From a virus (Duplodnaviria > Heunggongvirae > Uroviricota > Caudoviricetes): DNA of 55,177 nt. The notes beneath the pieces are model-generated. The model was not told where the DNA came from. It ran no database searches and worked only from the letters and a program-made list of their open reading frames with translations. The stretch is from the IMG/VR virus record IMGVR_UViG_2541047719_000008, one strand, 5' to 3'. Position 1 is the first letter of the stretch; every line of letters starts with the position of its first letter. Below are positions 19,608 to 37,491 of this stretch, piece after piece. A program made the position numbers and the translations under genes.

Positions 19608-20114
19608 ATGGCCTTTTTATTGAATAAAAGTGATATGGCCTCCTCCATCGGTATCTCTGTTCAGGCATTTGATAAATGGGGCGTTCCTCCTGTCGAGCGT
19701 CGGGGGAGGGAAGTTTTTTATGACGTTAAAACTGTACTGGAGATAGATCGCGAGCGGCGACAACACAATCATAGAACACCTGATGACGGGGGCGATCTGG
19801 AGGAAAGGCTGCTTCGGGCCAGAGCTGAACTGACAGAAGAACAGGCCGTAGCTCAAAAACTTAAAAATCAGGTAACCGAAGGTAAGCTCATCGATTCAGA
19901 CTTCTGCGTTTTCGCCCTCAGCAAGCTGGCGATGGCATTGTCCAGTACGCTTGATTCTATTCCGTTATCCATGCAGCGACAGTTCCCGGATTTAACGCCA
20001 CGTCATCTTGACCATCTGAAAACCCTTATTGCGAAGGGCGCAAATCAGTGTGCGCGGGCAGGGGATAAATTACCGGATTTGCTGGATGAATATATCAGAG
20101 CAACAACTGAATAA
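19608..20114 (+). CDS. nu1: Terminase small subunit Nu1
   Basis: N-terminal winged HTH plus LSKLAMALSSTLDSIPLSMQRQFPDL; clear lambda Nu1 homolog; start chosen at MAFLLNK with GGAGAGGAG RBS. Confidence 0.85.
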   Translation: MAFLLNKSDMASSIGISVQAFDKWGVPPVERRGREVFYDVKTVLEIDRERRQHNHRTPDDGGDLEERLLRARAELTEEQAVAQKLKNQVTEGKLIDSDFCVFALSKLAMALSSTLDSIPLSMQRQFPDLTPRHLDHLKTLIAKGANQCARAGDKLPDLLDEYIRATTE

Positions 20115-22014: not shown

Positions 22015-22204
22015 ACTGCAGGCGCTGCGTCAGGCGCGCCTTGATTTATTAACCGGTAAACGGGTGGTGTCTGTCCAGAAAGATGGTCGCAGAATTGAAT
22101 ATACGGCGGCTTCTCTGGATGAGCTTAACCGGGCTATCAATGATGCGGAGTCGGTACTGGGGACAACCCGACGTCGCCGTCGTCCGCTGGGAGTGAGGTT
22201 ATGA
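21998..22204 (+). CDS. W: Head-tail joining protein W
   Basis: 68 aa with LLTGKRVVSVQKDGRRIEYTAASL, matching lambda gpW. Confidence 0.8.
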   Translation: MVTVAELQALRQARLDLLTGKRVVSVQKDGRRIEYTAASLDELNRAINDAESVLGTTRRRRRPLGVRL

Positions 22205-23793: not shown

Positions 23794-25288
23794 TCTTTCA
23801 CACATTATTGCCGCAGCATTCAATGAACCGCTGCTTCTGGAGCCCGCCTATGCGCGGGTTTTCTTTTGCGCGCTCGGGCGCGAGATGGGGGCAGCAAGTC
23901 TTTCGGTACCACAACAACAGGTACAGCTTGATGCTCCCGGAATGCTGGCTGAAACGGACGAGTATATGGCCGGAGGTAAACGACCGGCCCGTGTTTACCG
24001 GGTGGTGAACGGTATTGCTGTACTGCCGGTGACCGGCACGCTGGTGCACCGGCTGGGTGGTATGCGGCCATTTTCCGGAATGACAGGCTATGACGGCATT
24101 GTCGCCTGTCTTCAGCAGGCAATGGCGGATAGCCAGGTGCGGGGCGTACTGCTGGACATTGACAGTCCGGGCGGGCAGGCCGCCGGCGCGTTTGACTGCG
24201 CTGACATGATTTACCGCCTCCGTCAGCAGAAGCCGGTCTGGGCACTGTGCAATGACACGGCCTGTTCTGCAGCCATGCTGCTGGCGTCGGCCTGCTCCCG
24301 ACGGCTGGTTACCCAGACATCCCGTATCGGCTCCATTGGCGTGATGATGAGCCATGTCAGCTATGCCGGTCATCTGGCGCAGGCCGGTGTGGATATCACG
24401 CTGATTTACTCAGGTGCGCACAAGGTGGATGGCAATCAGTTTGAAGCGTTGCCGGCAGAGGTTCGCCAGGACATGCAGCAGCGGATTGATGCGGCGCGCC
24501 GGATGTTTGCCGAAAAAGTGGCGATGTATACCGGTCTGTCTGTTGATGCCGTCACGGGAACAGAGGCTGCCGTTTTTGAAGGTCAGTCCGGCATTGAGGC
24601 CGGGCTGGCGGATGAATTAATCAATGCGTCGGATGCCATCAGTGTGATGGCCACGGCGCTGAACAGTAATGTCAGAGGAGGCACTATGCCGCAATTAACT
24701 GCAACGGAAGCCGCCGCGCAGGAGAACCAGCGAGTGATGGGGATCCTGACATGCCAGGAAGCGAAAGGACGTGAACAGCTTGCCACGATGCTGGCAGGAC
24801 AACAGGGCATGAGCGTTGAACAGGCCCGGGCGATTCTGGCCGCGGCGGCACCGCAGCAGCCGGTGGCATCCACGCAGAGTGAAGCCGATCGCATTATGGC
24901 GTGTGAAGAAGCGAACGGTCGTGAACAACTGGCGGCAACGCTGGCGGCGATGCCGGAGATGACGGTGGAAAAAGCCCGCCCGATCCTGGCTGCTTCACCG
25001 CAGGCGGATGCCGGACCATCACTCCGTGATCAGATCATGGCACTGGATGAGGCAAAAGGGGCTGAGGCGCAGGCTGAACAGCTGGCTGCCTGCCCGGGAA
25101 TGACAGTGGAGAGCGCCCGGGCTGTGCTGGCTGCGGGATCAGGTAAGGCAGAACCGGTCTCTGCATCCACAACCGCCATGTTTGAACATTTCATGGCGAA
25201 CCATTCACCGGCAGCGGTACAGGGTGGCGTGCCACAGACGTCAGCAGACGGTGATGCGGACGTGAAAATGCTCATGGCCATGCCATGA
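23783..25288 (+). CDS. C: Capsid assembly protease C with in-frame Nu3-like scaffold region
   Basis: S49/ClpP-like N-terminal domain; C-terminal part contains three tandem ~45-aa repeats, as expected for the nested scaffold. Confidence 0.85.
   Translation: MRRNLSHIIAAAFNEPLLLEPAYARVFFCALGREMGAASLSVPQQQVQLDAPGMLAETDEYMAGGKRPARVYRVVNGIAVLPVTGTLVHRLGGMRPFSGMTGYDGIVACLQQAMADSQVRGVLLDIDSPGGQAAGAFDCADMIYRLRQQKPVWALCNDTACSAAMLLASACSRRLVTQTSRIGSIGVMMSHVSYAGHLAQAGVDITLIYSGAHKVDGNQFEALPAEVRQDMQQRIDAARRMFAEKVAMYTGLSVDAVTGTEAAVFEGQSGIEAGLADELINASDAISVMATALNSNVRGGTMPQLTATEAAAQENQRVMGILTCQEAKGREQLATMLAGQQGMSVEQARAILAAAAPQQPVASTQSEADRIMACEEANGREQLAATLAAMPEMTVEKARPILAASPQADAGPSLRDQIMALDEAKGAEAQAEQLAACPGMTVESARAVLAAGSGKAEPVSASTTAMFEHFMANHSPAAVQGGVPQTSADGDADVKMLMAMP
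24720..25140. repeat. Three tandem in-frame ~135-bp repeats within C/Nu3
   Basis: Protein repeats CQEAKGREQLATMLAGQQGMSVEQARAILAAAAPQ / CEEANGREQLAATLAAMPEMTVEKARPILAASPQ / LDEAKGAEAQAEQLAACPGMTVESARAVLAAG. Confidence 0.5.
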
Positions 25289-25324
25289 AGTCAGTGCTGA
25301 CCATCAATAGGAGGTTTTTACAAT

Positions 25325-25672
25325 ATGGTGACGAAAACCATCACTGAACAGCGTGCGGAAGTACGTATTTTTGCCGGTAATGATCCGGCTCATACCGCCA
25401 CAGGCAGCAGCGGGATTTCCTCGCCAACACCGGCACTGACGCCCCTGATGCTGGATGAAGCCACCGGGAAACTGGTGGTCTGGGACGGACAGAAAGCCGG
25501 TAGTGCGGTTGGCATACTGGTACTGCCGCTTGAAGGTACAGAGACGGCGCTGACGTATTACAAGTCGGGAACCTTTGCGACGGAGGCAATCCACTGGCCT
25601 GAAAGTGTGGATGAACACAAAAAGGCCAACGCCTTTGCCGGCAGTGCCCTGAGTCACGCGGCGCTGCCGTAA
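25325..25672 (+). CDS. D: Head decoration protein D
   Basis: 115 aa with DPAHTAT ... TPLMLD ... VVWDG ... YKSGTF ... HWPESV, matching lambda gpD. Confidence 0.85.
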   Translation: MVTKTITEQRAEVRIFAGNDPAHTATGSSGISSPTPALTPLMLDEATGKLVVWDGQKAGSAVGILVLPLEGTETALTYYKSGTFATEAIHWPESVDEHKKANAFAGSALSHAALP

Positions 25673-25729
25673 CACGTTATCAGGCCACCGCGGTGGCCTG
25701 ACTGATTTCTGAATGAAAGGAACTGATTT

Positions 25730-25975
25730 ATGGGATTGTTTACGACCCGCCAGTTACTCGGTTATACCGAACAAAAAGTTAAATTTCGTGCGCTGTTTCT
25801 GGAGCTGTTTTTCCGCCGTACGGTGAATTTCCATACCGAAGAGGTGATGCTGGACAAAATTACCGGAAAAACGCCGGTGGCGGCCTATGTCTCCCCGGTT
25901 GTTGAAGGAAAAGTGCTGCGTCATCGTGGTGGTGAAACCCGCGTGTTGCGTCCGGGCTACGTCAAGCCGAAGCAC
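25730..25975 (+). pseudogene. E: Major capsid protein E, N-terminal fragment (interrupted by the inserted element)
   Basis: First ~82 codons match lambda gpE up to RPGYVKPKH, then the frame runs into unrelated sequence and stops at 26005. Confidence 0.85.
25965..25975. other. Left junction core repeat (attL-like) AGCCGAAGCAC
   Basis: 11-bp sequence at the point where E homology ends; an imperfect copy AGCCGAAACAC lies where E homology resumes (36698-36708). Confidence 0.55.
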
Positions 25976-26137
25976 TTAGCATGGCTTTCTGAGGCTTTCG
26001 TGTAGTTGCTGGTTTTTACACTTAATCTTTTGATAATAAAGAGTAAGTTTATCTGGCGCTTTCACTGGATTTTCCTCGTTATCTGTGTGTTGCAATCATC
26101 TCTGTATTGCAGCTTGTATTGCTTTTTGGGGCTAAAA

Positions 26138-27373
26138 ATGGCTGGCGAGAACAAACTGAGCGACAAAGCACTTAAAGGATATCTGGGGAAACCTAGAGAA
26201 AAGCAGATCACCATTGCTGATGGAAAGGGGCTTTCTATTCGTGTGAGTACCAAGGGGGCTGTGAGCTTTGTTTTCTTCTACAGGTTAGCAGGTGGCCGGG
26301 CTGCTCCGGTCTGGCTAACGTTGGGTAAATATCCTGATATGTCACTCAAACAGGCAAGGGAAAAGCGCGACGAGTGCCGTGGTTGGTTGGCTGACAAACG
26401 TGATCCGCGTATTCAGATTAAGATTCAGGCTGAAGAACGCTTAAAGCCGGTCACAGTGGAGGATGCACTAAATTACTGGTATGAAAATTACTGTAAGGTG
26501 CGTCGTAAAACTCATGCTGTAACGCTTGGCAGATTTCGAAAGCATATCTTTCCCTATATCGGTCATTTGCCCGTAAATGACACTCACCTATATGAATGGC
26601 TGGACTGTTTTGACCGAATTAAACGTAATGCACCAGTTATGGCGGCGTATGTTTTTTCTGACACTAAATTAGCTCTTCGTTTTTGTCGGGTACGCCAGTA
26701 CGCGACGTGTGATGCTTTAAAGGATTTGCGCATGAGTGATGTGGGGCAGATTGCAGGTAAGCGGGATCGGGTTCTGGATGAAGCCGAACTGGGCCAGCTC
26801 TGGAAGGCAATTTTTGTCGAGCCTGATTTAAAACTAATGTCTGAATACACGCGAAAAATGTTTGTGCTTTGTACAGTATTTGGATGTCGAATGAGTGAAG
26901 CCCGATTATCAGAATGGAGCGAATGGGATCTAGAAAGTTGGGTTTGGACTGTACCGAAAGATCACTCAAAAACTGGTGTTGAAATTGTCAGGCCAGTACC
27001 TGAAATTCTACGGCAGTGGGTAACGGATGTTCACGAAGAGACAAAACATACTGGTTATGTGCTGGGAAGTCTGCGAATTAGAGAAAGCGTAAGCAAGATT
27101 GGGGGGAAAATCGGTAAACGTTTGGGCCATGAAAAACAATGGTCACTACACGACCTTAGAAGAACGCTATCTACTCATCTAAGTGATCTCGGTGTTGAAT
27201 TTTATGTAGTAGAACAACTGTTAGGCCATGCGCTACCTGGCGTGGCAGGTGTTTACAACCGGAGTAAGTTTATGGCTAAAAAACTGGATGCTCTGGAACT
27301 CTGGACTACATATCTCAATAGCATCGCAGCTGCTGATTCAAAAGTGACAATCCTCAAACAAAAGGCTGGTTAG
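26138..27373 (+). CDS. int: Tyrosine integrase, P4-type
   Basis: N-terminal LSDKALKGYLGKP...GKGLSIRVS (P4-integrase N-domain) and C-terminal catalytic HDLRRT ... GH...Y motifs; start taken at MAGENK rather than the upstream ORF start at 26006. Confidence 0.85.
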   Translation: MAGENKLSDKALKGYLGKPREKQITIADGKGLSIRVSTKGAVSFVFFYRLAGGRAAPVWLTLGKYPDMSLKQAREKRDECRGWLADKRDPRIQIKIQAEERLKPVTVEDALNYWYENYCKVRRKTHAVTLGRFRKHIFPYIGHLPVNDTHLYEWLDCFDRIKRNAPVMAAYVFSDTKLALRFCRVRQYATCDALKDLRMSDVGQIAGKRDRVLDEAELGQLWKAIFVEPDLKLMSEYTRKMFVLCTVFGCRMSEARLSEWSEWDLESWVWTVPKDHSKTGVEIVRPVPEILRQWVTDVHEETKHTGYVLGSLRIRESVSKIGGKIGKRLGHEKQWSLHDLRRTLSTHLSDLGVEFYVVEQLLGHALPGVAGVYNRSKFMAKKLDALELWTTYLNSIAAADSKVTILKQKAG

Positions 27374-27374
27374 C

Positions 27375-27596
27375 ATGAAAAAAATGGCAATTGTTGATAA
27401 AAAGGGGCTGGAGTACATTCCTAACATTGACCGAATGATCCGTGAGAAAGAATGTCGGGAGCTAACCACTCTTGCGAACAGCACACGCTGGAAGCTTGAA
27501 AAGGAGGGGAAATTCCCCAAGCGAATCAAAATCGGATCTACGGCGGTGGCTTATAGACTCTCTGAGATTCAAGCTTGGATAAGAGGTGAATGGTAA
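27375..27596 (+). CDS. alpA: AlpA-family transcriptional regulator/excisionase
   Basis: 73 aa; REKECRELTTLANSTRWKLEKEGKFPKRIKIG...AYRLSEIQAWI matches the AlpA pattern; directly follows int. Confidence 0.75.
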   Translation: MKKMAIVDKKGLEYIPNIDRMIREKECRELTTLANSTRWKLEKEGKFPKRIKIGSTAVAYRLSEIQAWIRGEW

Positions 27597-27622: not shown

Positions 27623-28306
27623 TTACAGGAAATTTTTTAAATCAGGGTTTTTTCCAAATGCGCTCTTATAATATACTGTTGCAATCTCGTTAAAAATAGT
27701 TTTTATATCATCGGTAACCACTATTGTTGCTACGCGCAAATCTTTTTGATATTCATTTAAATCTGGAGGGGTATAGTCCAATAGCGTTGATTTATCCAAG
27801 ATTAAATGTTCTAACATGGCATAGCGCTCAATCAATGTTTTATAAAAATGATATTGATTTTCACTGTTAGCATGTGCACAGTTTATTGCAAGTAAATACG
27901 TTATTTCATTATCTAGATGTGCACGGACAAGGCTTGTATAGGTTTTTTTACGATCTAGATCAAAGGGATGGTATCCAGCATTTTCATCAATGAACTTCAA
28001 TAGATGATATAATATTCTGAAGTAGCTTCCAAAAACAGCATCATGATTGTGCATCAGTGTATTAGTGTCTTTTAAAGAAACCAATCCATTCATCATTTTA
28101 TTAATTAACTCTGAGTAATTTGATTTTTTTCTAAGATCATTTAGAGCATTGTTATGTTGAGATAACATGAGAGAAAATGTTGATTCAAAAGATGATTGCT
28201 TTTTAGCAATTAATGCAACTAACACTGCTGTGCAAGTCCCGAGTGCCACGAAGAAATTTATAATGTTTGATGCAGTGAATACAGCATCGTCAGGAGTTGG
28301 AGTCAT
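27623..28306 (-). CDS. AT-rich cargo gene: hypothetical membrane-anchored protein, candidate abortive-infection/defence factor
   Basis: 227 aa on the opposite strand to int-alpA; one N-terminal hydrophobic helix; markedly AT-rich compared with its neighbours; no confident family assignment. Confidence 0.5.
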   Translation of the reverse strand: MTPTPDDAVFTASNIINFFVALGTCTAVLVALIAKKQSSFESTFSLMLSQHNNALNDLRKKSNYSELINKMMNGLVSLKDTNTLMHNHDAVFGSYFRILYHLLKFIDENAGYHPFDLDRKKTYTSLVRAHLDNEITYLLAINCAHANSENQYHFYKTLIERYAMLEHLILDKSTLLDYTPPDLNEYQKDLRVATIVVTDDIKTIFNEIATVYYKSAFGKNPDLKNFL

Positions 28307-28338
28307 TTGAATATCCTATTCAATAAAAATTAAAAAAA

Positions 28339-28533
28339 TTAGCCTTTAGGTTCTATACCTTTACGGCGAAGCTCAGCACGAACTAATTCTTTAATCCAAT
28401 TGGCCAAGCTCATTCCTTCCTGAGCTGCTGATTCAGCCATCTGTTCTTTGAGTTCAGGATTGATTCGGATCTGAAACGCAGGGGCTTTGCCGGCTCCTTT
28501 TGGCTGCTTATCTCTTTGAATTGTAGTTGACAT
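28339..28533 (-). CDS. Ribbon-helix-helix (CopG/Arc-type) DNA-binding protein
   Basis: 64 aa; APAFQIRINPELKEQMAESAAQEGMSLANWIKELVRAEL is a classic RHH beta-strand plus two helices. Confidence 0.65.
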   Translation of the reverse strand: MSTTIQRDKQPKGAGKAPAFQIRINPELKEQMAESAAQEGMSLANWIKELVRAELRRKGIEPKG

Positions 28534-28669: not shown

Positions 28670-29035
28670 ATGGCTGGAACACAGCATACCCAAACTCACC
28701 CTAAATTTATATACATCTTTCTGGCGCTACATCGCGATCGCATAGCAGATGGAGCAACTACGGTACATGTAGCCGCTGACACGCTGGTTGATGCGCGCAA
28801 GATGGTTAAGGAGATGGGCTATACTGCGGCTTTCTGGAAAGGGCGGGAAGAAAACACGCTGTTTATTCAGAAATGTGAAAACAATTTCATCTGGCGTTTT
28901 ATCGCCCTGAGTACGGCACAACCGCGCGTGATTACCATCGAGGCCACCAGCGAACAGGAAGCCCGCCAGCAATCCCCAACTGGCTGCGTGATGATATTCG
29001 CCGCCCGTATTCGTCAGGAGGTGTGCCATGAATGA
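28670..29035 (+). CDS. Hypothetical protein (first gene of the rightward operon of the element)
   Basis: 121-aa ORF; no motif recognised; true start may be internal. Confidence 0.4.
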   Translation: MAGTQHTQTHPKFIYIFLALHRDRIADGATTVHVAADTLVDARKMVKEMGYTAAFWKGREENTLFIQKCENNFIWRFIALSTAQPRVITIEATSEQEARQQSPTGCVMIFAARIRQEVCHE

Positions 29036-29252
29036 TCTTTATTTTAAAGTGCTGACACATGCTGAAAACGCGCTCGTTTGTGGCAAAAATATGCGAGAAA
29101 TCTTATCAACCTGGCTTGATGGGACAACAAATGCGGAACACGATGAACGGGATGCTAATTTAGCTGGAGCGTTAATTACGTTACTTGATCCTGTCATCAA
29201 AGAGCTGGATGAAGCTATAAAAATACACGACCAGAGCTATACCGGAGAATAA
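29028..29252 (+). CDS. Hypothetical protein
   Basis: 74-aa ORF overlapping the upstream stop. Confidence 0.4.
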   Translation: MNDLYFKVLTHAENALVCGKNMREILSTWLDGTTNAEHDERDANLAGALITLLDPVIKELDEAIKIHDQSYTGE

Positions 29253-29255
29253 AAA

Positions 29256-29543
29256 ATGAAAAATAAATTTTCTGGCTTTATTGCCAGCGGTCAAACTCAT
29301 TCAAAAATCAGCCTTGGGGATATTTTCAAAGATAGCTATGGCTATCGGGTAAAGATTATTTCGGTTGATGATCGTCGTGTCTCTTATTTGCGTGATGGTT
29401 ATGATTTTGAATGTGTTATGCCGCGTCAGCAGTTCGAAAGAGATTTCATTCTGGTAAAAAATTGCAAGACAGATAATCAGAGGCGTGCCGCAGGCTATAT
29501 CCGTAAAATTCGGGCAATGTTAGTTGCCGGAGGTAACAAATGA
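29256..29543 (+). CDS. Hypothetical protein
   Basis: 95-aa ORF immediately preceding and overlapping the primase start. Confidence 0.4.
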   Translation: MKNKFSGFIASGQTHSKISLGDIFKDSYGYRVKIISVDDRRVSYLRDGYDFECVMPRQQFERDFILVKNCKTDNQRRAAGYIRKIRAMLVAGGNK

Positions 29544-31360
29544 AACGTGCTCCGAACTTAAAATACCAACCGCGCGACAAAATGACGGAAGTCATCATTT
29601 TTGCTGGCAGTGATGCCTGGAGCCATGCAAAAGAATGGAATGAATGGGCAGGTAAGCATATTGCAGCAGATGATACACCACCAGTCATTCTGGGTACGGA
29701 ACAACTGGAAAACCTGGATGATATGCAAATTATCGATGAAGGCCGTCATTATGTGCGTGTTTATCGTGCCGGAAAGATTGCAGAGAAAAGTCTGACGAAG
29801 GTTGCGACATTACTTGCTATTGCAGGCGTAAAGGAAGCACGTTGTTACCGTAGCTTTGTTGATCGAGAGCCTGAAGACTGGACTCCGCGCCTTGTCGGCC
29901 TAAAAGCTGAAGCGGAGCATGGGGAAAGTCTGGTGATTGAACTGCCAGTGAAGAAGGCAGAGCGCAAAAATGACGAGCGTGCTTCATCTTTGGCGTTGAA
30001 TCAGATGGGGGCCAGCCAGCGCGGTGAAGTTCTCCTTGCACATTACGGCGGCGAACTGGCAATCAATGCCGACTCTGACACCGTTCATCATTACAACGGC
30101 GTTGTATGGGAGCCGGTTCAGGATAAAGAGTTACAGCGTGCTATGGCGCAGATTTTCATTGATGCGGAGATCAGCTATTCGCAGAACGCCATTAAATCGG
30201 CGGTAGATACCATGAAGTTAAGTTTGCCTGTAATGGGGAATACAGCCCGTAACCTGATTGGATTCAGTAACGGGGTATTTGATACCAGAACTGGTAATTT
30301 TCGGGAGCATAACAAAAACGACTGGTTGTTAATTGCCAGTGAATTACCTTTCAGCCCACCAGCAGAGGGGGAAACGCTGGCAACACATGCGCCGAATTTC
30401 TGGAAGTGGTTGCGCCGTTCGGTGGCTGAGAATGACCGCAAGGCAGATCGCGTACTGGCGGCATTATTCATGGTGCTGGCGAACCGGTACGACTGGCAGT
30501 TATTCATTGAGGTAACAGGGCCGGGGGGAAGTGGTAAAAGTGTGATGGCGGAGATTTGCACCATGCTGGCGGGTAAGGCGAATACAGTATCAGCAAGCAT
30601 GAAGGCGCTGGAAGATGCAAGGGAACGTGCGTTAGTGGTTGGCTTTTCGCTGATTATCATGCCGGATATGACCCGCTACGCTGGTGATGGGGCAGGGATT
30701 AAGGCCATTACAGGCGGTGACAAGGTGGCAATTGACCCGAAACACAAAGCCCCCTATTCAACGCGTATTCCGGCAGTAGTGCTGGCGGTTAACAATAACG
30801 CCATGTCATTCAGTGACCGCAGCGGGGGGATCTCACGTCGTCGGGTGATATTCAATTTTTCGGAAGTTGTACCGGAGAACGAACGCGATTCGATGCTGGC
30901 GGAAAAAATAGAAGGTGAGCTGGCGGTAGTGATTCGCCATCTGCTTACACGGTTTGCTGATCAGGACGAAGCCAGACGCCTGTTATATGAGCAGCAGAAA
31001 TCTGAAGAAGCACTGGCGATAAAGCGAGAGGGGGATTCGCTGGTGGACTTCTGCGGCTATCTCATGGCATCGGTAATGTGTGATGGCCTGTTAGTGGGTA
31101 ATGCTGAAATTGTGCCATTCAGCCCACGCAGGTATCTCTATCATGCCTATCTGGCTTATATGAGGGCACATGGGTTTGGTAAACCTGTAACACTGACGCG
31201 CTTCGGTAAAGATATGCCGGGGGCAATGGCGGAATATGGCAGGGAGTATATGAAACGGAAAACGAAGCACGGTTTGCGTTCAAACGTGACACTGACGGAG
31301 GAATCAGAAGACTGGATGCCATCATGTGTATCGGTCACTAATGACGATAGCAAAAATTAA
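29540..31360 (+). CDS. Primase/helicase replication initiator (P4-alpha / PICI Pri-Rep type)
   Basis: 606 aa with Walker A GPGGSGKS in the C-terminal half (D5/P4-primase-type NTPase); followed directly by an iteron array. Confidence 0.8.
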   Translation: MKRAPNLKYQPRDKMTEVIIFAGSDAWSHAKEWNEWAGKHIAADDTPPVILGTEQLENLDDMQIIDEGRHYVRVYRAGKIAEKSLTKVATLLAIAGVKEARCYRSFVDREPEDWTPRLVGLKAEAEHGESLVIELPVKKAERKNDERASSLALNQMGASQRGEVLLAHYGGELAINADSDTVHHYNGVVWEPVQDKELQRAMAQIFIDAEISYSQNAIKSAVDTMKLSLPVMGNTARNLIGFSNGVFDTRTGNFREHNKNDWLLIASELPFSPPAEGETLATHAPNFWKWLRRSVAENDRKADRVLAALFMVLANRYDWQLFIEVTGPGGSGKSVMAEICTMLAGKANTVSASMKALEDARERALVVGFSLIIMPDMTRYAGDGAGIKAITGGDKVAIDPKHKAPYSTRIPAVVLAVNNNAMSFSDRSGGISRRRVIFNFSEVVPENERDSMLAEKIEGELAVVIRHLLTRFADQDEARRLLYEQQKSEEALAIKREGDSLVDFCGYLMASVMCDGLLVGNAEIVPFSPRRYLYHAYLAYMRAHGFGKPVTLTRFGKDMPGAMAEYGREYMKRKTKHGLRSNVTLTEESEDWMPSCVSVTNDDSKN

Positions 31361-31373
31361 ACTTATGGAATAA

Positions 31374-31596
31374 CTGTTCACCACTGTTCACCCTGTCATA
31401 AATATCTTTTATATCAGTATATTATAGGGTGAACAGTTATTTATGAACTGTTCACCAAACTATTCACTGTTCACCTTTTTGATTGTTTATTGAGCTTCAA
31501 GGGTGAACAGTGGTGAACAGTTGGTGAATAGTTTTTGTGAAACTGTTCACCCATTAACATTATGAATTAAAAGAGAAAATATCAAAAGGTGAACAG
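31374..31596. repeat. Iteron array, candidate replication origin of the element
   Basis: At least nine copies of the 9-mer CTGTTCACC/GGTGAACAG in both orientations (e.g. 31374, 31384, 31428, 31448, 31467, 31502, 31512, 31543, 31588) in AT-rich non-coding DNA. Confidence 0.7.
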
Positions 31597-31647
31597 GTGA
31601 AGGGTTAAAACGCAAAAATTTTAATTTACTGCTGTGAGATAAAGCCT

Positions 31648-31893
31648 ATGACAGCGAAGCACACAAAAAAATCACAATCGCACGCCCTTGATTTGACGGA
31701 ACACTGGTTAAGGGTGTCGATAAAAATCATCGACCGCAACGCCGGGGAAGGATACGCGAAAGCACATCCCGAACTGATTAGCGCATTCATGACAACGGCG
31801 GCTGCAAACTTTGCCACTCTGACCGAACGGGAGATTGCTGAAGCGGAGGAAGTGGCAACAATCAATATTAAGTCCGGAGAGCAGGCAGCATGA
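31648..31893 (+). CDS. Hypothetical protein
   Basis: 81-aa ORF between the origin and ssb. Confidence 0.4.
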   Translation: MTAKHTKKSQSHALDLTEHWLRVSIKIIDRNAGEGYAKAHPELISAFMTTAAANFATLTEREIAEAEEVATINIKSGEQAA

Positions 31894-32339
31894 CGGCGCA
31901 AATATCAGTTTACGGGCGGTTGGTGGACGACCCGCAGACAAAACAGACCAGCAAGGGCACCCCCATGACGCTGGCGCGTATGGCGGTATCACTGCCCTGC
32001 AGTCAGTCGGATGACGGTCAGGCGACGATGTGGTTATCTGTCCTGGCGTTTGGCAGACAAGCCGACGCGCTGGCAAAGCATCACAAAGGCGAACTCCTGA
32101 GCGTGGCGGGTAATATGCAGGTGAGCCAGTGGACTGGACAGAACGGTGAAACGCGGCAGGGCTGGCAGGTTATCGCAGACAGCGTAATCAGTGCGCGAAC
32201 GGTGCGACCGGGCGGCAAAAAAGGTCAACAGGGTCAGGCTACTGACGCACTGAACAGAGCAAAACAACAGGCAGATCAGCAAGGAAGCCATCCACCAGTG
32301 GGAGATAATGAACAATGGGGAGATGATATTCCGTTTTAA
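31890..32339 (+). CDS. ssb: Single-stranded DNA-binding protein
   Basis: OB-fold-like N-terminus, Gly/Gln-rich linker and the canonical acidic tip DDIPF at the C-terminus. Confidence 0.75.
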   Translation: MTAQISVYGRLVDDPQTKQTSKGTPMTLARMAVSLPCSQSDDGQATMWLSVLAFGRQADALAKHHKGELLSVAGNMQVSQWTGQNGETRQGWQVIADSVISARTVRPGGKKGQQGQATDALNRAKQQADQQGSHPPVGDNEQWGDDIPF

Positions 32340-32550
32340 ATATTGCCAATAAAAAAGGCCGGAAAAAAATAAATTTTCCGGCATGCTACATAAATCCCGA
32401 CCAAAGGGAGTGAAGATATTAACACTAATTATCCGCGCTGAAGTTGTTATCCCAAAACTTTATACAACATTGCACTCGGTTGCATGTATTCGCATGACAA
32501 ATATCGGTGATAGCATATATCCACAATTATTTTTAATGAATGCAAAGAGG

Positions 32551-33597
32551 ATGCGTATGGTTGATTTATATTCGCCTACCCAGCTTGTACAGGTGGTTAA
32601 TGCTGTAGATGTACAAAAACAACTAAATGCGTTGTTTACCAGTTTGTTTTTTACTCGCTCGGTAATGTTTGAATCGCGCGATATTATTCTTGATACAATC
32701 GACGATCCAAATATCCCAATTGCAGCGTTTTGTTCTCCTATGGTGGGTAGTAAAGTTTCACGTGACGAAGGGTACGAATCAAAAACAATTCGTCCAGGCT
32801 ATATGAAGCCGAAAAGCAGCATTGATCCAAATAAGTTAGCTGTGCGCCCTGTTGGTGTATCACCTGAGCAATACAATGCTTTTGGAGCGCGTAATATTAA
32901 AGTTAAACAGGCGATTGTAAATCAGGCTAAAGCTATTCGTGCACGTATTGAATGGCTTGCCGTTCAGGCAATCACAACGGGGAAAAATATCATTGAGGGC
33001 GATGGTATTGAACGTTATGAGCTGGACTGGAATATTAAACCACAAAATATCATCACTCAGTCTGGCGGTGCTGAGTGGTCAGGTAAGGATAAAGAAACTT
33101 TTGATCCAAATGATGATATTGAGAGCTACGCAGAATTTAGTGAGGGCGTCACTAATATTATCATTATGGGCGGTAATGTATGGAAGAAATACCGTTCATT
33201 CAGAGCGATAAAAGAGGCTCTGGATACCCGTCGTGGTTCTAATTCCGAACTGGAAACGGCCCTTAAAGACCTTGGTGATTCGGTGAGTTTTAAAGGGTAT
33301 ATGGGCGATGTTGCGATTGTTGTTTACAGCGGGCGTTATACCGACGAGGACGGAACAGAAAAACATTTCCTTGATCCTGATTTGATGGTGCTTGGCAATA
33401 CGGCTCTTCAGGGGATTGTCGCCTATGGCGGTATTCAGGATCCGGAGCTAATCCGAATGGGGCTGACTAAAGCCGAACTTGCACCGAAAAACTATATTGT
33501 GCCTGGTGATCCGGCTATTGAATATGTGCAGACACATTCAGCACCACAGCCAATACCGGCCCGCATCAATCGTTTTGTTACCGTTCGCATTGGCTAA
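32551..33597 (+). CDS. Major capsid protein, lambda E-like paralog encoded by the inserted element
   Basis: Full-length homology to the split prophage E gene (RPGYMKPKS vs RPGYVKPKH; LDTRRGSNSELETALKDLG; YSGRYTDEDG; GDPAIEY). Start at MRMVDLY with AAAGAGG RBS; the tool ORF starts at 32383. Confidence 0.8.
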   Translation: MRMVDLYSPTQLVQVVNAVDVQKQLNALFTSLFFTRSVMFESRDIILDTIDDPNIPIAAFCSPMVGSKVSRDEGYESKTIRPGYMKPKSSIDPNKLAVRPVGVSPEQYNAFGARNIKVKQAIVNQAKAIRARIEWLAVQAITTGKNIIEGDGIERYELDWNIKPQNIITQSGGAEWSGKDKETFDPNDDIESYAEFSEGVTNIIIMGGNVWKKYRSFRAIKEALDTRRGSNSELETALKDLGDSVSFKGYMGDVAIVVYSGRYTDEDGTEKHFLDPDLMVLGNTALQGIVAYGGIQDPELIRMGLTKAELAPKNYIVPGDPAIEYVQTHSAPQPIPARINRFVTVRIG

Positions 33598-33606
33598 GGG
33601 GGAGCA

Positions 33607-33948
33607 ATGGCTACTCATTACACTGAACTCATGGCTGGCACTGAAGCACTGGTGACTACGCTGGGGATATTTTCAGCTAATAAAGGGGTAATTCCTGCAT
33701 TTACGCCACTGATGCAGGAAGATGCAACAGGTGCACTGGTAGTATGGGATGGTTCGAGCGTAGGTAAAGCGGTTTATGTTTCCGCTGTACAAATCGACAC
33801 CGCGAAAAAAACACAGGCTCAGGTCTATAAGACAGGTGTCTTAAATGTTGATGCTCTGAACTGGCCTGAGTCTGTTAAAGAACTGTCAGTAAAGGTTGCA
33901 GCGTTTGTTGGCTCAGGTATTTCTGTTCAGCCGCTGGCTCGTGTGTAA
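33607..33948 (+). CDS. Head decoration protein, lambda D-like paralog encoded by the inserted element
   Basis: 113 aa sharing TPLM, VVWDG, YK(T/S)G, NWPESV and AF(V/A)GS blocks with the prophage D protein. Confidence 0.75.
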   Translation: MATHYTELMAGTEALVTTLGIFSANKGVIPAFTPLMQEDATGALVVWDGSSVGKAVYVSAVQIDTAKKTQAQVYKTGVLNVDALNWPESVKELSVKVAAFVGSGISVQPLARV

Positions 33949-33959
33949 AGGGGGATACA

Positions 33960-34343
33960 ATGCAGAATGATTACAATGACCTTAAGCCAATTGCCGAAAT
34001 GATGTACCCGAATCAAGCTGTAGAGGAATTAAAAGCTATCGCTGACAAAATGTGTTTAAGCGAGCGCCTTGTTGATATGAATCAGGTGATGGAAATTACA
34101 ACCCTGAGTCGTCGTACACTGCTAAACCTTGAGGCTAGTGGAGAGTTCCCGGAGCGTGTGCAGGTTACGGAAGGGCGTAAGGCCTGGTATTTAAGTGAAG
34201 TGATCGACTGGATAAATAATATTCCTCGCGCTTCTGAATATTGCCGCGTACCTGTCCCAAAAAAGCCAGATGCGGCGCTATGCCTCAAGATTGAGCGTGT
34301 ACGCCGCAATGCACGGGATGGTCGCTATAAGCTGATTGGTTGA
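33960..34343 (+). CDS. AlpA-like HTH DNA-binding protein
   Basis: MEITTLSRRTLLNLEASGEFPERVQVTEGRKAWYLSEVIDWI matches the AlpA-type HTH; precedes the element's cos site. Confidence 0.5.
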   Translation: MQNDYNDLKPIAEMMYPNQAVEELKAIADKMCLSERLVDMNQVMEITTLSRRTLLNLEASGEFPERVQVTEGRKAWYLSEVIDWINNIPRASEYCRVPVPKKPDAALCLKIERVRRNARDGRYKLIG

Positions 34344-34369
34344 TGAAATTAGGGCCTGCTCTGGCTGGC

Positions 34370-34434
34370 GGGTCCTTTCCGGCGATCTGACAGGCTACGG
34401 GGCGTCAGGCGCGCGGGTTTTCGCTATTTATGAG
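34370..34434. other. Second, element-borne cos site with variant cosN (GGGCGTCAGGCG)
   Basis: GGGTCCTTTCCGGCGATCTGACAGGCTACG + GGGCGTCAGGCG + CGCGGGTTTTCGCTATTTATGAG aligns to the prophage cos at 19350-19416, with five substitutions in the 12-nt cohesive-end segment. Confidence 0.7.
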
Positions 34435-34535
34435 CATTTTAAGGGGACTGGTGGTGGTTTTGTTGTTCGCTATATCTGTATGAATAATAAGAGAAAAATA
34501 CAATCAATACACCAACCTGAAACAGTAATTAAGTT

Positions 34536-35087
34536 GTGGTATCAATGAAATTACACCTGATGAACAAAAAAAACATGGCAAAAAGTTGCCGTGTAAGCGC
34601 CACTGCGTTCGATAAGTGGGGAGTGATTCCCGTCGAGCGTAAGGGCCGTGAGGCGTTCTATGATGTTGCCAGTGTAATAGATAATCGGGTTAACAATGCA
34701 ATCAGCCAGATTACAAACGAAACGGGCGATATTGATGACGATGAACTTTTACGCGTCAGGATCAGATTACTGACAGCACAGGCAGAGGCGCAGGAGCTTA
34801 AAAACGAGCGCGAACGCGGCGACGTTATTGATACAGAGTTTTGTATGTATGTTCTTTCCAAACTGGCGAGTCAGATTTCATCTATCATGGACAGCCTGCC
34901 GCTTACCATGCAAAGGCGCTTCCCACAGATGACTCCGGCTATGCTGGATGGACTTAAAAAGGAAGTGGCTAAAGCCTGTAATGCCAGTGCCGGCGTTGCT
35001 GACAACCTCCCACAGATACTGGCTGATTATCTGATGGAAAGTACAGGAAACGTACCGGATAAGTTGCAGCTGAATAAGGATAAGTAA
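34536..35087 (+). CDS. Terminase small subunit, Nu1-like paralog encoded by the inserted element
   Basis: SATAFDKWGVIPVERKGREAFYDV ... YVLSKLASQISSIMDSLPLTMQRRFPQMTP parallels the prophage Nu1 (SVQAFDKWGVPPVERRGREVFYDV ... ALSKLAMALSSTLDSIPLSMQRQFPDLTP). Confidence 0.8.
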   Translation: MVSMKLHLMNKKNMAKSCRVSATAFDKWGVIPVERKGREAFYDVASVIDNRVNNAISQITNETGDIDDDELLRVRIRLLTAQAEAQELKNERERGDVIDTEFCMYVLSKLASQISSIMDSLPLTMQRRFPQMTPAMLDGLKKEVAKACNASAGVADNLPQILADYLMESTGNVPDKLQLNKDK

Positions 35088-35098
35088 CGTAGTACGCT

Positions 35099-35374
35099 AT
35101 GACTGAATCCGAACTACTGAAAGTAATCTGCCATGCTGGTGGAGTCAGCCACCAGCATGACGAACAGGCCACGCAGCCGGGCAGTGTCACCGCTGAAAAT
35201 TACGCTCGTGTGGTTGCTGAGGTTATGTGGCGTGACGGTATAGAACTGAACGGACAGGATTGCTTAGTCATCCGCACCAAAGTGCTGGCTATACTGGCAG
35301 CTAGGCGGAGGCAGGGACAACGCCAGAACGTTGCATCGTACCAGTGGAAGAAGCCTGACAGACTGCGGCGATAA
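35099..35374 (+). CDS. Hypothetical protein
   Basis: 91-aa ORF after the Nu1-like gene; no motif recognised. Confidence 0.35.
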   Translation: MTESELLKVICHAGGVSHQHDEQATQPGSVTAENYARVVAEVMWRDGIELNGQDCLVIRTKVLAILAARRRQGQRQNVASYQWKKPDRLRR

Positions 35375-35776: not shown

Positions 35777-36538
35777 TTATTTCCCATCTTTAAGGTTTAA
35801 CCAAGTGTTAATTAAAAAAAGAGCCATTGAGCCTGATAAATTTACTGCAAGTTCGGCATGCCTTGGGGATGGCTTAATTGATGAGCTGTTCGTTCCATGT
35901 GCATCACCGAGTTTATTACGAAGAGTACCTAACCCATTTACAACTGCAGAACAACCGCCGAGAATTTGTTTGAAGATATTTTCAGTATGTTGGTCGGCAG
36001 ATAGGTTAAGTTCTTTTGAAAGAGTTTTATAAAGCTCTGACATTTCAATATTTTTATTATTATACTGAATGCCCATATCATCAAGAATGTGTTTGCAAAC
36101 TGTTTCAAGAAGTGTTCTTGCGGAGGTTATCGCACCATCCGGATCTGTATGGCGCCGTTCAAGTGCTTTTATCCAAACGGCGTGGACTCCATCCTCGTTA
36201 AACTTTCTTAATACATCAGATATGTCTTCATCCGCTGGAGCTTTATTTTTCCCTTCTAGATAGTCCAGCATCGGCTGAAATGCCTTATAAATCAAATCTC
36301 TCCGGGGGGCATACTTTTCAGTCTTTTTTATAAATCCCCAAAATTCTTTTAGTGAGCGATTAGTTCTCACAAACTCTGGTAATAGCTGATGTAAAGGAGG
36401 ATTTTGTAAGAAATATGTTCTTAGAAGCAAATAATCATTATTAGCTTCATCCTGGGCTCCTGTAGCTCTTGCAATTAGTATGTTTTGAAGCGCTACTGCG
36501 CGCTCTAGGTCATTTTGAAGGGTATCTATAATATTCAT
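35777..36538 (-). CDS. AT-rich cargo gene: Abi_C-like (abortive infection C-terminal domain) protein
   Basis: 253 aa; C-terminal GTLRNKLGDAHG resembles the conserved R-N-x-x-G-x-A-H-G signature of Abi_C domains; opposite strand and AT-rich. Confidence 0.5.
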   Translation of the reverse strand: MNIIDTLQNDLERAVALQNILIARATGAQDEANNDYLLLRTYFLQNPPLHQLLPEFVRTNRSLKEFWGFIKKTEKYAPRRDLIYKAFQPMLDYLEGKNKAPADEDISDVLRKFNEDGVHAVWIKALERRHTDPDGAITSARTLLETVCKHILDDMGIQYNNKNIEMSELYKTLSKELNLSADQHTENIFKQILGGCSAVVNGLGTLRNKLGDAHGTNSSSIKPSPRHAELAVNLSGSMALFLINTWLNLKDGK

Positions 36539-36697
36539 AACAAATCTTTATTCACTTCATTTGTGGGTTGATAATTGAATGGTTTGTACATTGATTTCTG
36601 TGTATTGCAGTGTGTATTGCAACATAGCCATTCAGGTAGAGATTATGCTCTATTTTTCCTCTTATATCATTCACATACTTACACCATTGACTCATGT

Positions 36698-36708
36698 AGC
36701 CGAAACAC
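36698..36708. other. Right junction core repeat (attR-like) AGCCGAAACAC
   Basis: Imperfect copy of the left junction 11-mer, at the exact point where the E reading frame resumes. Confidence 0.55.
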
Positions 36709-37491
36709 GAATTTAATTACCAGCAGGCGGTTGAGCGCCTTCCTGGTGAAGATCCATCTCAACTGAACGATCCGGCTTACCGCCGTCTGCGTATCATTAC
36801 CGATAACCTCAAACAGGAAGAGCACGCGATTGTCCAGGTGGAAGAAATGCAGGCGGTAAATGCTGTGTTGTATGGCAAATACACCATGGAAGGAGACCAG
36901 TTCGAGAAAATTGAGGTCGATTTTGGCAGGTCGACGAAGAATAACATCACACAGGGTAGCGGTAAGGAATGGTCAAAACAGGATCGTGACACGTTCGATC
37001 CTACACATGATATTGACCTTTACTGCGACCAGGCCAGCGGTCTTGTGAATATTGCCATCATGGACGGTACCGTCTGGCGTCTGCTGAATGGTTTTAAGCT
37101 GTTTCGCGAAAAACTGGATACCCGTCGCGGTTCAAATTCACAACTCGAAACGGCAGTGAAAGATCTGGGCGCAGTGGTGTCCTTCAAGGGGTATTACGGC
37201 GATCTGGCTATTGTTGTGGCGAAAACGTCTTATATAGCAGAAGACGGTATCGAAAAACGTTATCTTCCAGATGGCATGCTGGTCCTGGGGAATACTGCTG
37301 CAGATGGGATCCGTTGTTACGGAGCCATTCAGGATGCGCAGGCGTTTTCCGAAGGTGTGGTGGCTTCTTCCCGTTATCCGAAACACTGGCTGACGGTGGG
37401 GGATCCTGCCCGTGAATTTACCATGACGCAGTCCGCACCGCTGATGGTGTTGCCGGACCCGGATGAGTTTGTGGTGGTACAGGTGAAATAA
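36700..37491 (+). pseudogene. E: Major capsid protein E, C-terminal fragment
   Basis: Frame opens after a TAG at 36697-36699 and reads PKHEFNYQQAVERLPGEDP ... DPAREFTMTQSAPLMVLPDPDEFVVVQVK, matching lambda gpE from about residue 80 to the end. Confidence 0.85.

What the first reader, a model, noticed from the sequence alone, without database searches (positions are those of the whole stretch)
32551..33948. The inserted element encodes its own paralogs of capsid protein E and decoration protein D
ORF 32551-33597 is homologous along its whole length to the split prophage E, and ORF 33607-33948 is homologous to prophage D (shared TPLM, VVWDG, YKSG, WPESV blocks). The element has no portal, protease, large terminase or tail genes. 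It therefore appears to supply only the capsid shell and rely on the helper for everything else. Because an ~11 kb genome would suit a smaller shell, its capsid protein may specify a different capsid size. This differs from the size-redirection mechanisms I know for P4 (external scaffold Sid) and SaPIs (CpmAB), and from capsid-forming PICIs, which carry a complete HK97-type head module.
Basis: partly seen in the sequence, partly recalled or inferred. Interest (0 to 1): 0.88.

Follow-up and report, generated by a model that had tools for sequence, protein, structure and literature searches.

The report
Known satellite carrying own capsid genes
The inserted 10.7 kb element is a published kind of phage satellite (a "helper-embedded PICI") that sits inside its helper prophage's capsid gene. 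It carries its own diverged capsid and decoration genes, a known but functionally unexplained feature that I could show is a conserved, satellite-specific gene pair.

Summary
ORF 33607-33948 is a lambda-D-type decoration protein. They are 41-48% and 45% identical to the helper prophage's E and D, so they are not a duplication or an assembly artefact.

The finding is not new. The element is the "11capE" type of helper-embedded PICI (Tommasini et al. 2023, PMC10111431). The E/D-like pair was noted in the model PICI EcCICFT073 as c1499/c1500 (Fillol-Salom et al. 2018, PMC6092414; c1499 is PDB 3BQW). In that study, deleting either gene changed neither transfer nor interference, and all packaged DNA was phage-sized. 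This argues against the proposed size redirection. A satellite capsid homologue that does resize heads is already known (SaPIbov5 Ccm).

New here:
- The satellite E'/D' pairs form one deep clade found only in satellites; no phage among 50,697 records exceeds 42% identity.
- The gene order is always inverted (E' then D').
- Both genes are under strong purifying selection (dN/dS 0.02-0.15).
- D' has its own N-terminal signature.
- Some relatives add a C-like protease gene.

The pair probably builds shells on helper parts. Its exact role remains untested.

The parts
25325..25672 (+). Helper prophage head decoration gene D (phage-21 SHP type)
   Evidence: 45% identical to D'. PDB 1TD0/1TD3 is the best solved match to D', and its printed alignment shows the same residue blocks as helper D. 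It lies upstream of E, as in all phages examined.
25730..25975 (+). N-terminal fragment of the helper major capsid gene E (codons 1-82), ending in the attL core AGCCGAAGCAC (25965-25975)
   Evidence: Sequence read. Rejoining with 36709-37491 gives an intact 342-aa E. RefSeq annotates the same split in other genomes.
26138..27596 (+). Satellite integration module: tyrosine integrase (26138-27373) and AlpA (27375-27596)
   Evidence: Pfam Arm-DNA-bind_3, Phage_integrase and Phage_AlpA. A doubled TGTATTGCAG motif at 26099 and 36597 flanks the ends.
27623..28533 (-). Accessory slot: AbiC-like protein (27623-28306) and a small RHH protein (28339-28533)
   Evidence: Pfam putAbiC 2.8e-16; HicB/RHH. 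PADLOC gives weak AbiC/AbiP matches. The slot holds TIR or DUF2971 genes in close relatives.
28670..32339 (+). Replication zone: Icd-like, DUF4222, D5-type primase-helicase (29540-31360), ori iterons (31363-31551), SSB (31890-32339)
   Evidence: Pfam D5_N, DUF5906, Pox_D5 and SSB. Iteron families D7 and D16.
32557..33597 (+). E': satellite-lineage major capsid protein (346 aa)
   Evidence: Pfam Phage_cap_E 8e-41. PDB 3BQW 1e-120 and lambda gpE 3e-76. 55% identical to EcCICFT073 c1499. dN/dS 0.02-0.07. Falls in the satellite-only clade.
33607..33948 (+). D': satellite-lineage head decoration protein (113 aa), starting 9 nt after the E' stop
   Evidence: Pfam HDPD 4.5e-15. 54% identical to EcCICFT073 c1500. 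Satellite-specific N-terminal and C-terminal signatures. dN/dS 0.05-0.15.
33960..34343 (+). Second AlpA-like regulator
   Evidence: Pfam Phage_AlpA 7.5e-9; phrog_2790.
34369..34518 (+). Satellite cos site
   Evidence: 78% identical over 150 nt to the helper cos at 19349-19498. The cosN-like 12-mer is GGGCGTCAGGCG, versus GGGCGGCGACCT in the helper.
34545..35374 (+). Nu1-like small terminase TerS' (34545-35087) and a conserved 91-aa ORF (35099-35374)
   Evidence: Pfam Phage_Nu1 1e-24. 48% identical to the helper Nu1 over nearly the full length. No similarity to the 144-aa CFT073 protein in the equivalent position, which I take to be RppA by its length and position. The 91-aa ORF is 54% identical to a CFT073 ORF.
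35777..36538 (-). AbiJ-like abortive-infection gene (accessory)
   Evidence: Pfam Abi_C 1.3e-23. PADLOC AbiJ 2e-21.
36698..37491 (+). attR core AGCCGAAACAC (36698-36708) followed by the C-terminal part of helper gene E (36709-37491)
   Evidence: The repeat unit from attL to attR is 10,733 bp.

Best explanation
The region is the late zone of a helper-embedded phage-inducible chromosomal island (HE-PICI) of the published '11capE' type. It is integrated by its tyrosine integrase at codon ~80 of the helper prophage's capsid gene E, and it is co-oriented with the helper late operon.

E' and D' are functional structural proteins of an old, satellite-specific lineage of the lambda E/D families.

Most likely mechanism (inferred, not shown):
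1. After helper induction, the satellite genes are expressed. Read-through from the helper late operon is plausible.
2. E' polymerises into shells on the helper's portal (B) and protease/scaffold (C/Nu3).
3. D' trimers cement the E' lattice.
4. The satellite's own Nu1-like TerS' recruits the helper large terminase (A) to the satellite cos.
5. The helper supplies head completion and tails.

By analogy with EcCICFT073, the shell is probably helper-sized (T=7) and filled with about four 10.7-kb units. The module then works as an independent, partly redundant capsid supply rather than as a size switch.
For: Identity of the element:
- The gene order is int-alpA-accessory-DUF4222-primase-ori-SSB-E'-D'-cos-terS'.
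- It is flanked by the core AGCCGAA[G/A]CAC within a split E gene.
- The same arrangement is annotated in other E. coli genomes.
- It is described in PMC10111431.

Functional proteins:
- E' dN/dS is 0.065 at dS 0.135. It stays 79-87% identical at the protein level while synonymous sites are saturated. D' dN/dS is 0.05-0.15.
- 83 alignment columns have the same majority residue (in at least 85% of sequences) in both the satellite and the phage groups, and there are no domain-scale indels.
- The fold matches 3BQW and lambda gpE.

Satellite lineage:
- The NJ tree splits all proteins at least 52% identical to E' from the phage E proteins.
- Every sampled subclade sits in an int-alpA-primase satellite with the order E'->D' and a gap of about 9 nt. 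Every phage locus has D->E.
- The best match among 50,697 phage records is 42%.

Shell-forming role:
- D' always travels with E'.
- D' has a clade-specific N-terminus. That is the segment which in lambda staples D to the E-loop and N-arm of E (PMC5701804).
- fis-site relatives add a C-like S49 protease/scaffold gene after D'.

Not a backup for the split gene:
- The pair is also present in chromosomal PICIs.
- It is present in an HE-PICI that splits the portal gene while the helper D and E stay intact.

Helper-sized packaging: the EcCICFT073 data.

Read-through: no strong + strand terminator lies between attL and E'.
Against: - No experiment exists on this element. Tommasini et al. could not detect virions of the 50icd/11capE pair.
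- In EcCICFT073, deleting c1499 or c1500 gave no phenotype. Any structural role is therefore dispensable or redundant under laboratory conditions.
- A 100% identical copy of the element sits in a helper whose A, B, C and D proteins are only 54-65% identical to those here. E' would have to work with divergent portals and scaffolds.
- A relative is embedded in P2-like prophages whose capsid protein belongs to another family.
- Incorporation of E'/D' into particles has never been shown.
Confidence: 0.55

Rival explanations
1. E' (with D') forms, or forces, a smaller shell (T=4 or T=3) that fits one or two 10.7-kb satellite units and excludes the helper genome. The analogy is SaPIbov5 Ccm.
For: - A satellite capsid-protein homologue that resizes heads exists: Ccm.
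- The Pasteurella PICI PmCI172 encodes a capsid homologue and makes small heads.
- The satellite has its own cos, so cos-to-cos monomers are possible.
- E' is an independent lineage with 12 clade-discriminating positions.
Against: - In EcCICFT073 with lambda, all packaged DNA was phage-sized, and deleting c1499 or c1500 changed neither interference nor transfer.
- E' has no insertion or deletion relative to phage E that would suggest altered geometry.
- By my own estimate from the P4/P2 and SaPI1/80alpha genome ratios of about 0.35, a T=4 lambda-type head would hold about 17 kb. That fits neither one unit (10.7 kb) nor two (21.4 kb) well.
Confidence: 0.15
2. Interference or poisoning. E' and/or D' co-assemble with helper E/D, or compete for helper portal and scaffold, so that helper capsid production is lowered. 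They would be anti-helper weapons rather than building blocks of satellite particles.
For: - PICIs typically interfere with their helpers.
- The EcCICFT073 deletions were tested only while Rpp was present. Rpp alone blocks lambda, so a second, masked interference layer is not excluded.
- E' keeps the family-invariant interface positions.
Against: - A poison would not need a cognate, co-evolving decoration protein or a C-like protease.
- No phenotype was seen on lambda plaques.
- The element already splits helper E, and it carries TerS' and cos for packaging competition.
Confidence: 0.15
3. Backup copy. E' merely replaces the helper E gene that the insertion interrupts, so that capsids can be made before or without satellite excision. 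Tommasini et al. proposed this idea.
For: - The insertion splits E.
- E' lies downstream in the same orientation, with no strong terminator between.
- The idea is stated in PMC10111431.
Against: - The same E'D' lineage occurs in PICIs at chromosomal sites (CFT073 next to phoQ; Salmonella; fis site).
- It occurs in an HE-PICI that splits the portal gene while helper D and E are intact.
- It occurs in P2-like prophages.
- D is not interrupted, yet D' is always carried.
- The lineage is old and is not derived from current helpers.
Confidence: 0.1
4. Decaying hitch-hikers. E' and D' are non-functional remnants of an old capture of helper late genes.
For: No phenotype of the c1499/c1500 deletions.
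Against: - dN/dS is 0.02-0.15.
- The ORFs are intact in every locus examined.
- Tight E'-D' coupling is conserved across genera.
- About 395 of 5,426 complete E. coli genomes carry this sub-lineage with at least 80% coverage.
Confidence: 0.03

Closest known systems
HE-PICI Eco567.11capE of E. coli NRG857c (Tommasini, Mageeney & Williams 2023, PMC10111431)
   Same: [quoted passage not shown]
- It carries its own E-family capsid gene.
- It has the four zones (integration, accessory/Bro, replication, late) and a doubled motif near the att sites.
   Different: - In this window the helper has phage-21-type head genes, whereas the helper in strain AST216, which carries an identical copy of the element, has lambda-type head genes.
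- I did not align the window directly to the NRG857c sequence.
- The paper does not analyse the lineage, gene order or selection of E'/D'.
EcCICFT073 c1499/c1500 (Fillol-Salom et al. 2018, PMC6092414; c1499 = PDB 3BQW)
   Same: - A Gram-negative PICI with a capsid gene followed by a head-decoration gene in the same order and spacing.
- E' is 55% and D' is 54% identical to them. Both fall in the same satellite clade.
   Different: - EcCICFT073 is integrated in the chromosome next to phoQ.
- It uses Rpp rather than a Nu1-like TerS.
- It has a small RHH-like ORF coupled upstream of the capsid gene that the window's element lacks.
SaPIbov5 Ccm (capsid-protein homologue that redirects head size)
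   Same: A satellite-encoded HK97-fold paralogue of the helper capsid protein in a cos-packaged satellite.
   Different: - Ccm is 23% identical to its helper's capsid protein and has no decoration partner.
- It converts prolate heads into small isometric heads.
- No size change is known for the lambda-type E' proteins.
Capsid-forming PICIs (cf-PICI, e.g. EcCIEDL933)
   Same: - The same int-alpA-rep backbone.
- The satellite encodes capsid proteins.
   Different: - cf-PICIs encode a complete head and packaging set: capsid protein, protease, portal, connectors, TerS, TerL and HNH.
- This element has only E', D', TerS' and cos.
- The fis-site relatives with E'-D'-S49 protease look like an intermediate grade on a different (lambda-type) capsid family.
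P4 (Sid/Psu) and SaPI1 (CpmA/CpmB)
   Same: Satellites of temperate phages that depend on helper heads and tails. P4 Psu also decorates capsids.
   Different: - Those satellites use external or internal scaffolds to resize helper-protein shells.
- No Sid, Psu or Cpm homologue is present here.

Membership tests
Gram-negative PICI (Fillol-Salom 2018) | Inward-facing integrase followed by alpA at the left end | tested here: met
   int 26138-27373 and alpA 27375-27596, both on the + strand.
Gram-negative PICI (Fillol-Salom 2018) | Own primase/replicase with an adjacent iteron origin | tested here: met
   D5_N/DUF5906/Pox_D5 protein at 29540-31360. Iterons at 31363-31551 directly downstream.
Gram-negative PICI (Fillol-Salom 2018) | Size of about 10-20 kb, flanked by att repeats, with no lysis or tail genes | tested here: met
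   The unit is 10,733 bp between the cores at 25965-25975 and 36698-36708. No tail or lysis domains were found.
Gram-negative PICI (Fillol-Salom 2018) | Means of hijacking helper packaging (cos and/or terS/rpp) | tested here: met
   The cos site is 78% identical to the helper cos, and there is a Nu1-like TerS'.
Gram-negative PICI (Fillol-Salom 2018) | Induction, replication and high-frequency transfer by a helper phage | not testable with these tools
   This needs induction and transduction experiments. For the published relative, excision after composite replication was shown but virions were not detected.
Helper-embedded PICI (Tommasini 2023) | [quoted passage not shown] | tested here: met
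   Helper E is split at codon 82, and rejoining restores a 342-aa ORF. The flanks are A, W, B, C, D upstream and FI-H downstream.
Helper-embedded PICI (Tommasini 2023) | Integrase belongs to the single HE-PICI clade, E:Phage_cap_E subclade | tested here: inconclusive
   No integrase tree was built. The integrase is 82-100% identical to those of other elements found split in E (L001, L002, L006, L007), and the site matches 'Phage_cap_E_80'.
Capsid-forming PICI | Encodes portal, protease, head-tail connectors, TerL and HNH in addition to the capsid protein | tested here: not met
   None of these domains is found in any ORF of the element.
Lambda E / D capsid protein families | Full-length match to Phage_cap_E / HDPD with the family-invariant residues and fold | tested here: met
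Ccm-type size-redirecting capsid paralogue | Causes satellite-sized capsids | not testable with these tools
   The only data are on the 55%-identical c1499. There, packaged DNA was phage-sized and the deletion had no phenotype.
P4-like satellite | Sid external scaffold, Psu, delta and an alpha primase | tested here: not met
   No Pfam or PHROG match to Sid, Psu or delta. Only the D5-type primase is shared in kind.

The most novel reading that the evidence does not exclude
The satellite-specific E'/D' pair (plus a C-like protease in some relatives) could be a 'shell-only' capsid module. It would build satellite-owned heads on a stolen helper portal, possibly of a different size with the natural helper. 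That would be a lambda-type intermediate grade between classical PICIs, which steal whole heads, and cf-PICIs, which steal only tails. The negative EcCICFT073 results would then reflect redundancy with the laboratory helpers used.
Probability: 0.15. Interest if true: 0.7.

Novelty: already known. Interest (0 to 1): 0.3.

Why it matters
The finding re-discovers a published configuration, so it does not open a new field. It does point at a real loose end. [quoted passage not shown]

It is strongly constrained, has an inverted gene order, and has its own D' attachment segment. That makes "functionless capture" untenable and sharpens the experiment needed: which capsid protein is in the particles, and in what head size, with the natural embedded helper.

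Tried and rejected
- **Duplication or assembly artefact.** Rejected: 41-48% protein identity, no long DNA repeat, and GC about 45% in the element versus 55-60% in the helper head genes.
- **Recent capture from a sequenced phage.** Rejected: the best of 50,697 phage records is 42% identical.
- **Backup for the interrupted gene as the general rationale.** Rejected on context: chromosomal PICIs, a portal-splitting HE-PICI and P2-embedded copies all carry E'D'.
- **Rpp-type packaging as in EcCICFT073.** Rejected: TerS' has no similarity to the 144-aa CFT073 protein in the equivalent position, which I take to be RppA by its length and position. It is a full-length Nu1 homologue.
- **Regulatory RNAs (C4/isrK) in the element.** No Rfam match at E <= 0.01.
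- **PADLOC scan of E'/D'.** No defence-system match.
- **The genome-contig scan.** It mostly returned phage E loci and lambda contamination, and only four loci of the satellite clade. Contexts of the other subclades had to be fetched one by one.
- **Literature searches for a later functional study of PICI E/D homologues.** Nothing was found beyond the 2018, 2019 and 2023 papers.
- **Genome-length arithmetic to discriminate T numbers.** It was inconclusive.
Full report
**What is in the window**

The window is a lambdoid prophage late operon. It reads Nu1 19503-20114, A, W, B 22201-23793, C 23783-25288 and D 25325-25672, then FI, FII, Z, U, V, G, T and H from about 37500 onward.

The major capsid gene E is split.
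- Codons 1-82 lie at 25730-25975.
- The remainder lies at 36709-37491.
- The two junctions share the core AGCCGAA[G/A]CAC.
- The inserted unit is 10,733 bp. Its GC content is about 45%, versus 55-60% in the flanking head genes.

**Gene content of the insert**

| Coordinates | Strand | Feature |
|---|---|---|
| 26138-27373 | + | tyrosine integrase |
| 27375-27596 | + | AlpA |
| 27623-28306 | - | AbiC-like protein |
| 28339-28533 | - | small RHH protein |
| 28670-29035 | + | Icd-like protein |
| 29256-29543 | + | DUF4222 |
| 29540-31360 | + | D5-type primase-helicase |
| 31363-31551 | + | iterons |
| 31890-32339 | + | SSB |
| 32557-33597 | + | E' |
| 33607-33948 | + | D' |
| 33960-34343 | + | second AlpA-like protein |
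| 34369-34518 | + | cos site, 78% identical to the helper cos at 19349-19498, with a different 12-mer at the nicking site |
| 34545-35087 | + | Nu1-like small terminase, 48% identical to the helper Nu1 |
| 35099-35374 | + | conserved 91-aa ORF |
| 35777-36538 | - | AbiJ-like gene |

No portal, protease, large terminase, connector, tail or lysis gene is present.

**Check of the observation**

E' matches Pfam Phage_cap_E over its whole length (8e-41). D' matches HDPD (4.5e-15).

E' is 41% and 48% identical to the two fragments of helper E. D' is 45% identical to helper D. At the DNA level only 21-26 nt patches are shared.

An AlphaFold2 model of E' (pLDDT 76, pTM 0.79) superposes on PDB 3BQW (TM 0.91) and on the lambda gpE crystal structure 7SJ5 (TM 0.88).

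There are three small corrections.
- The real start of E' is most likely ATG 32557, which has AGAGGA at the right distance. RefSeq uses it too.
- The fourth shared block reads YKTG in D'.
- The element also supplies cos and a small terminase, not only shell proteins.

**It is already described**

A full-text search led to Tommasini, Mageeney & Williams 2023 (PMC10111431).
- They coin the name helper-embedded PICI.
- They report 201 further copies in the same site in E and 290 in other late genes.
- The site name, Phage_cap_E_80, fits the split at codon ~80 seen here.

The E. coli genome collection supports this.
- The element is 100% identical in five complete genomes, and 40 genomes have at least 80% of it.
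- In the two relatives whose annotation I fetched, the element lies between two major-capsid pseudogene fragments. Most other listed hits show a second major-capsid annotation under the match, consistent with the same split.
- The window itself is from strain K56-43-un.

The capsid plus decoration pair was noted earlier in the model PICI EcCICFT073 as c1499 and c1500 (Fillol-Salom et al. 2018, PMC6092414).
- The crystal structure 3BQW, "putative capsid protein of prophage (E. coli CFT073)", is the best PDB match to E' (1e-120).
- I take 3BQW to be c1499, from its source strain, its length (351 aa) and its similarity to the CFT073 gene.
- E' is 55% identical to c1499, and D' is 54% identical to c1500.

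In EcCICFT073, deletion of c1499 or c1500 did not change transfer by the resident helper. It did not relieve interference with lambda either.

DNA extracted from particles after induction of a lambda lysogen carrying the island was all phage-sized, "ruling out" capsid size redirection. The authors state that they found no phenotype for c1499. Dokland's review repeats this. It also describes SaPIbov5 Ccm, a satellite-encoded capsid-protein homologue that does resize heads.

The proposed mechanism is therefore neither unprecedented nor supported for the closest studied relative. Two caveats remain.
- Those tests used lambda, phi80 and one resident prophage, on a protein only 55% identical to E'.
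- Rpp was present, and Rpp alone blocks lambda.

**What I could add**

1. Lineage.
   - A database search with E' gives a block of proteins at 52-100% identity, then a drop to about 41%.
   - In an NJ tree these two sets are separated by the deepest split.
   - I fetched genomic context for every major branch of the high-identity set.
   - The loci were the Kluyvera, Superficieibacter, Cedecea and Kosakonia loci, CFT073, and Salmonella, E. coli, Lelliottia, an ENA assembly and Edwardsiella loci.
   - Most sit in full int-alpA-(DUF4222)-primase or AAA_25 replicase satellites.
   - For three of them (the Kluyvera, Superficieibacter and CFT073 stretches) only part of the satellite backbone was seen in the DNA examined.
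   - None has a phage head module around E'.
   - The 41% set sits in complete phage head modules.
   - Among 50,697 phage records the best match to E' is lambda at 42%.
2. Gene order.
   - All satellites have E' then D', with D' starting about 9 nt after the E' stop (overlapping by 1 nt in one Salmonella element).
   - All phages have D then E. This is a shared derived character of the satellite module.
3. Selection.
   - For the closest unsaturated pair, dN/dS is 0.065 for E' and 0.145 for D'.
   - Across genera, synonymous sites are saturated while E' stays 79-87% identical.
4. E' conservation.
   - 83 alignment columns have the same majority residue (in at least 85% of sequences) in both clades.
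   - These include PGY.KPK, DTRRGSNS, VSFKGY.GD and GDPA.E.
   - There are no domain-scale indels.
   - 12 positions discriminate the clades.
5. D' signature.
   - D' has a satellite-specific N-terminus (M.T.Y.EL.AGT[EQ].L.TTL) in place of the phage ..AG[NS]DPAHTA motif.
   - It also has a satellite-specific C-terminal SVQPL.
   - In lambda, the N-terminal strand of gpD pairs with the E-loop and N-arm of gpE (PMC5701804).
   - A clade-specific staple therefore suggests that D' is matched to an E' lattice. This is an inference.
6. Added protease.
   - Two fis-site PICIs carry E'-D' followed by a 413-447 aa S49 (C-like) protease gene.
   - That gene only makes sense in procapsid assembly.
7. Not a backup.
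   - An Edwardsiella HE-PICI with E'D' splits the portal gene while helper D and E remain intact.
   - Chromosomal PICIs carry the pair too. "Backup for the split gene" cannot be the general explanation.
8. Helper breadth.
   - A 100% identical copy of the element lies in a helper with lambda-type A/B/C/D proteins that are only 54-65% identical to those in this window (phage-21 type).
   - A Salmonella relative is inserted in the sheath gene and in the terminase gene of P2-like prophages. At least one of these has a P2-type capsid gene.

**Most likely mechanism**

Shown:
- The element is a PICI embedded in helper gene E.
- E' and D' are intact, selected, satellite-lineage members of the lambda E and D families.
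- The element has its own cos and Nu1-like TerS.

Inferred:
- E' assembles shells on helper portal and scaffold.
- D' cements them.
- TerS' directs the helper's gpA to the satellite cos.
- The helper supplies completion proteins and tails.
- Expression may start by read-through from the helper late operon, since no strong + strand terminator lies between attL and E'.
- Head size is probably that of the helper, with about four 10.7-kb units (42.9 kb) per head, by analogy with EcCICFT073.

I give this 0.55. The rivals are size redirection (0.15), interference (0.15), backup only (0.10) and vestigial genes (0.03).

**Verdict**

The open question, what the conserved satellite E'/D' pair is for, remains real and testable. 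This justifies a modest rather than a minimal score.

Noticed in passing
L083 3100-14200 and L084 2500-14400 (Salmonella enterica assemblies): The same E'D'-bearing satellite (E' = P0020) is inserted in two different late genes of P2-like prophages. In L083 it lies in the tail sheath gene. In L084 it lies in the large terminase gpP gene. The core is about TAAAC(C)AGAC. The L084 prophage has a P2-type capsid gene, not lambda E. The abstract of the published HE-PICI survey describes sites only in cognates of lambda late genes.
   Followed up: partly
L089 9001-11752; L090 9001-11659: PICIs adjacent to the fis gene (the published fis-site type) in Lelliottia and an ENA assembly carry E'-D' followed by a 413-447 aa Peptidase_S49 (lambda C-like protease/scaffold) gene. 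This is a fuller lambda-type head module than in the window.
   Followed up: no
L092 1-14626 (Edwardsiella tarda): An HE-PICI with E'D' splits the helper portal gene, while the helper's own D and E are intact just downstream.
   Followed up: no
L003 463-669; L085 8777-9001; L087 8729-9001; L092 8789-9001: A 68-90 aa ORF with an RHH-like motif (GGVSVYISPDIV..AL) overlaps the start of E' (TAATG) in the c1499-type subclades. It is missing in the window's subclade, where a 174-nt leader (32383-32556) precedes E'.
   Followed up: partly
window 34369-34518 vs 19349-19498: The satellite cos is 78% identical to the helper cos but has a different 12-mer at the nick site (GGGCGTCAGGCG vs GGGCGGCGACCT). 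Close relatives (99.2% identity) share the element only up to about window 34435, inside cos. This suggests recombination breakpoints there.
   Followed up: partly
window 27623-28306 and 35777-36538 (minus strand): Two abortive-infection-like genes (AbiC-like, AbiJ-like) occupy the accessory slots. The first slot holds TIR-domain or DUF2971 genes in otherwise near-identical elements.
   Followed up: partly
L001 (E. coli AST216) vs window 19500-25700: An element 100% identical to the one in the window sits in a helper whose terminase, portal, protease and D proteins are only 54-65% identical to those here (lambda-type vs phage-21-type heads). The tail genes are 91-99% identical. The helpers are mosaic, and the satellite crosses head types.
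   Followed up: partly
L016-L031, L054, L058, L059, L068-L079 (genome-contig hits): Many short contigs in assemblies of unrelated organisms (Bradyrhizobium, Kitasatospora, Paenibacillus, Akkermansia MAG and others) encode a lambda-type E. Where flanks are available, the head and tail gene identities match a lambda-type prophage. This is almost certainly laboratory lambda contamination of those assemblies.
   Followed up: no
window 26099-26122 and 36597-36620: A doubled motif T(C/G)TGTATTGCAG..TGTATTGC lies just inside both ends of the element. It probably corresponds to the 'doubled DNA motif' (integrase arm sites) mentioned for HE-PICIs.
   Followed up: no
L091 3000-19000 (E. coli): A prophage combines a lambda-type head module (A, W, B, C, D, E, FI, FII) with a P2-type contractile tail and baseplate.
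   Followed up: no
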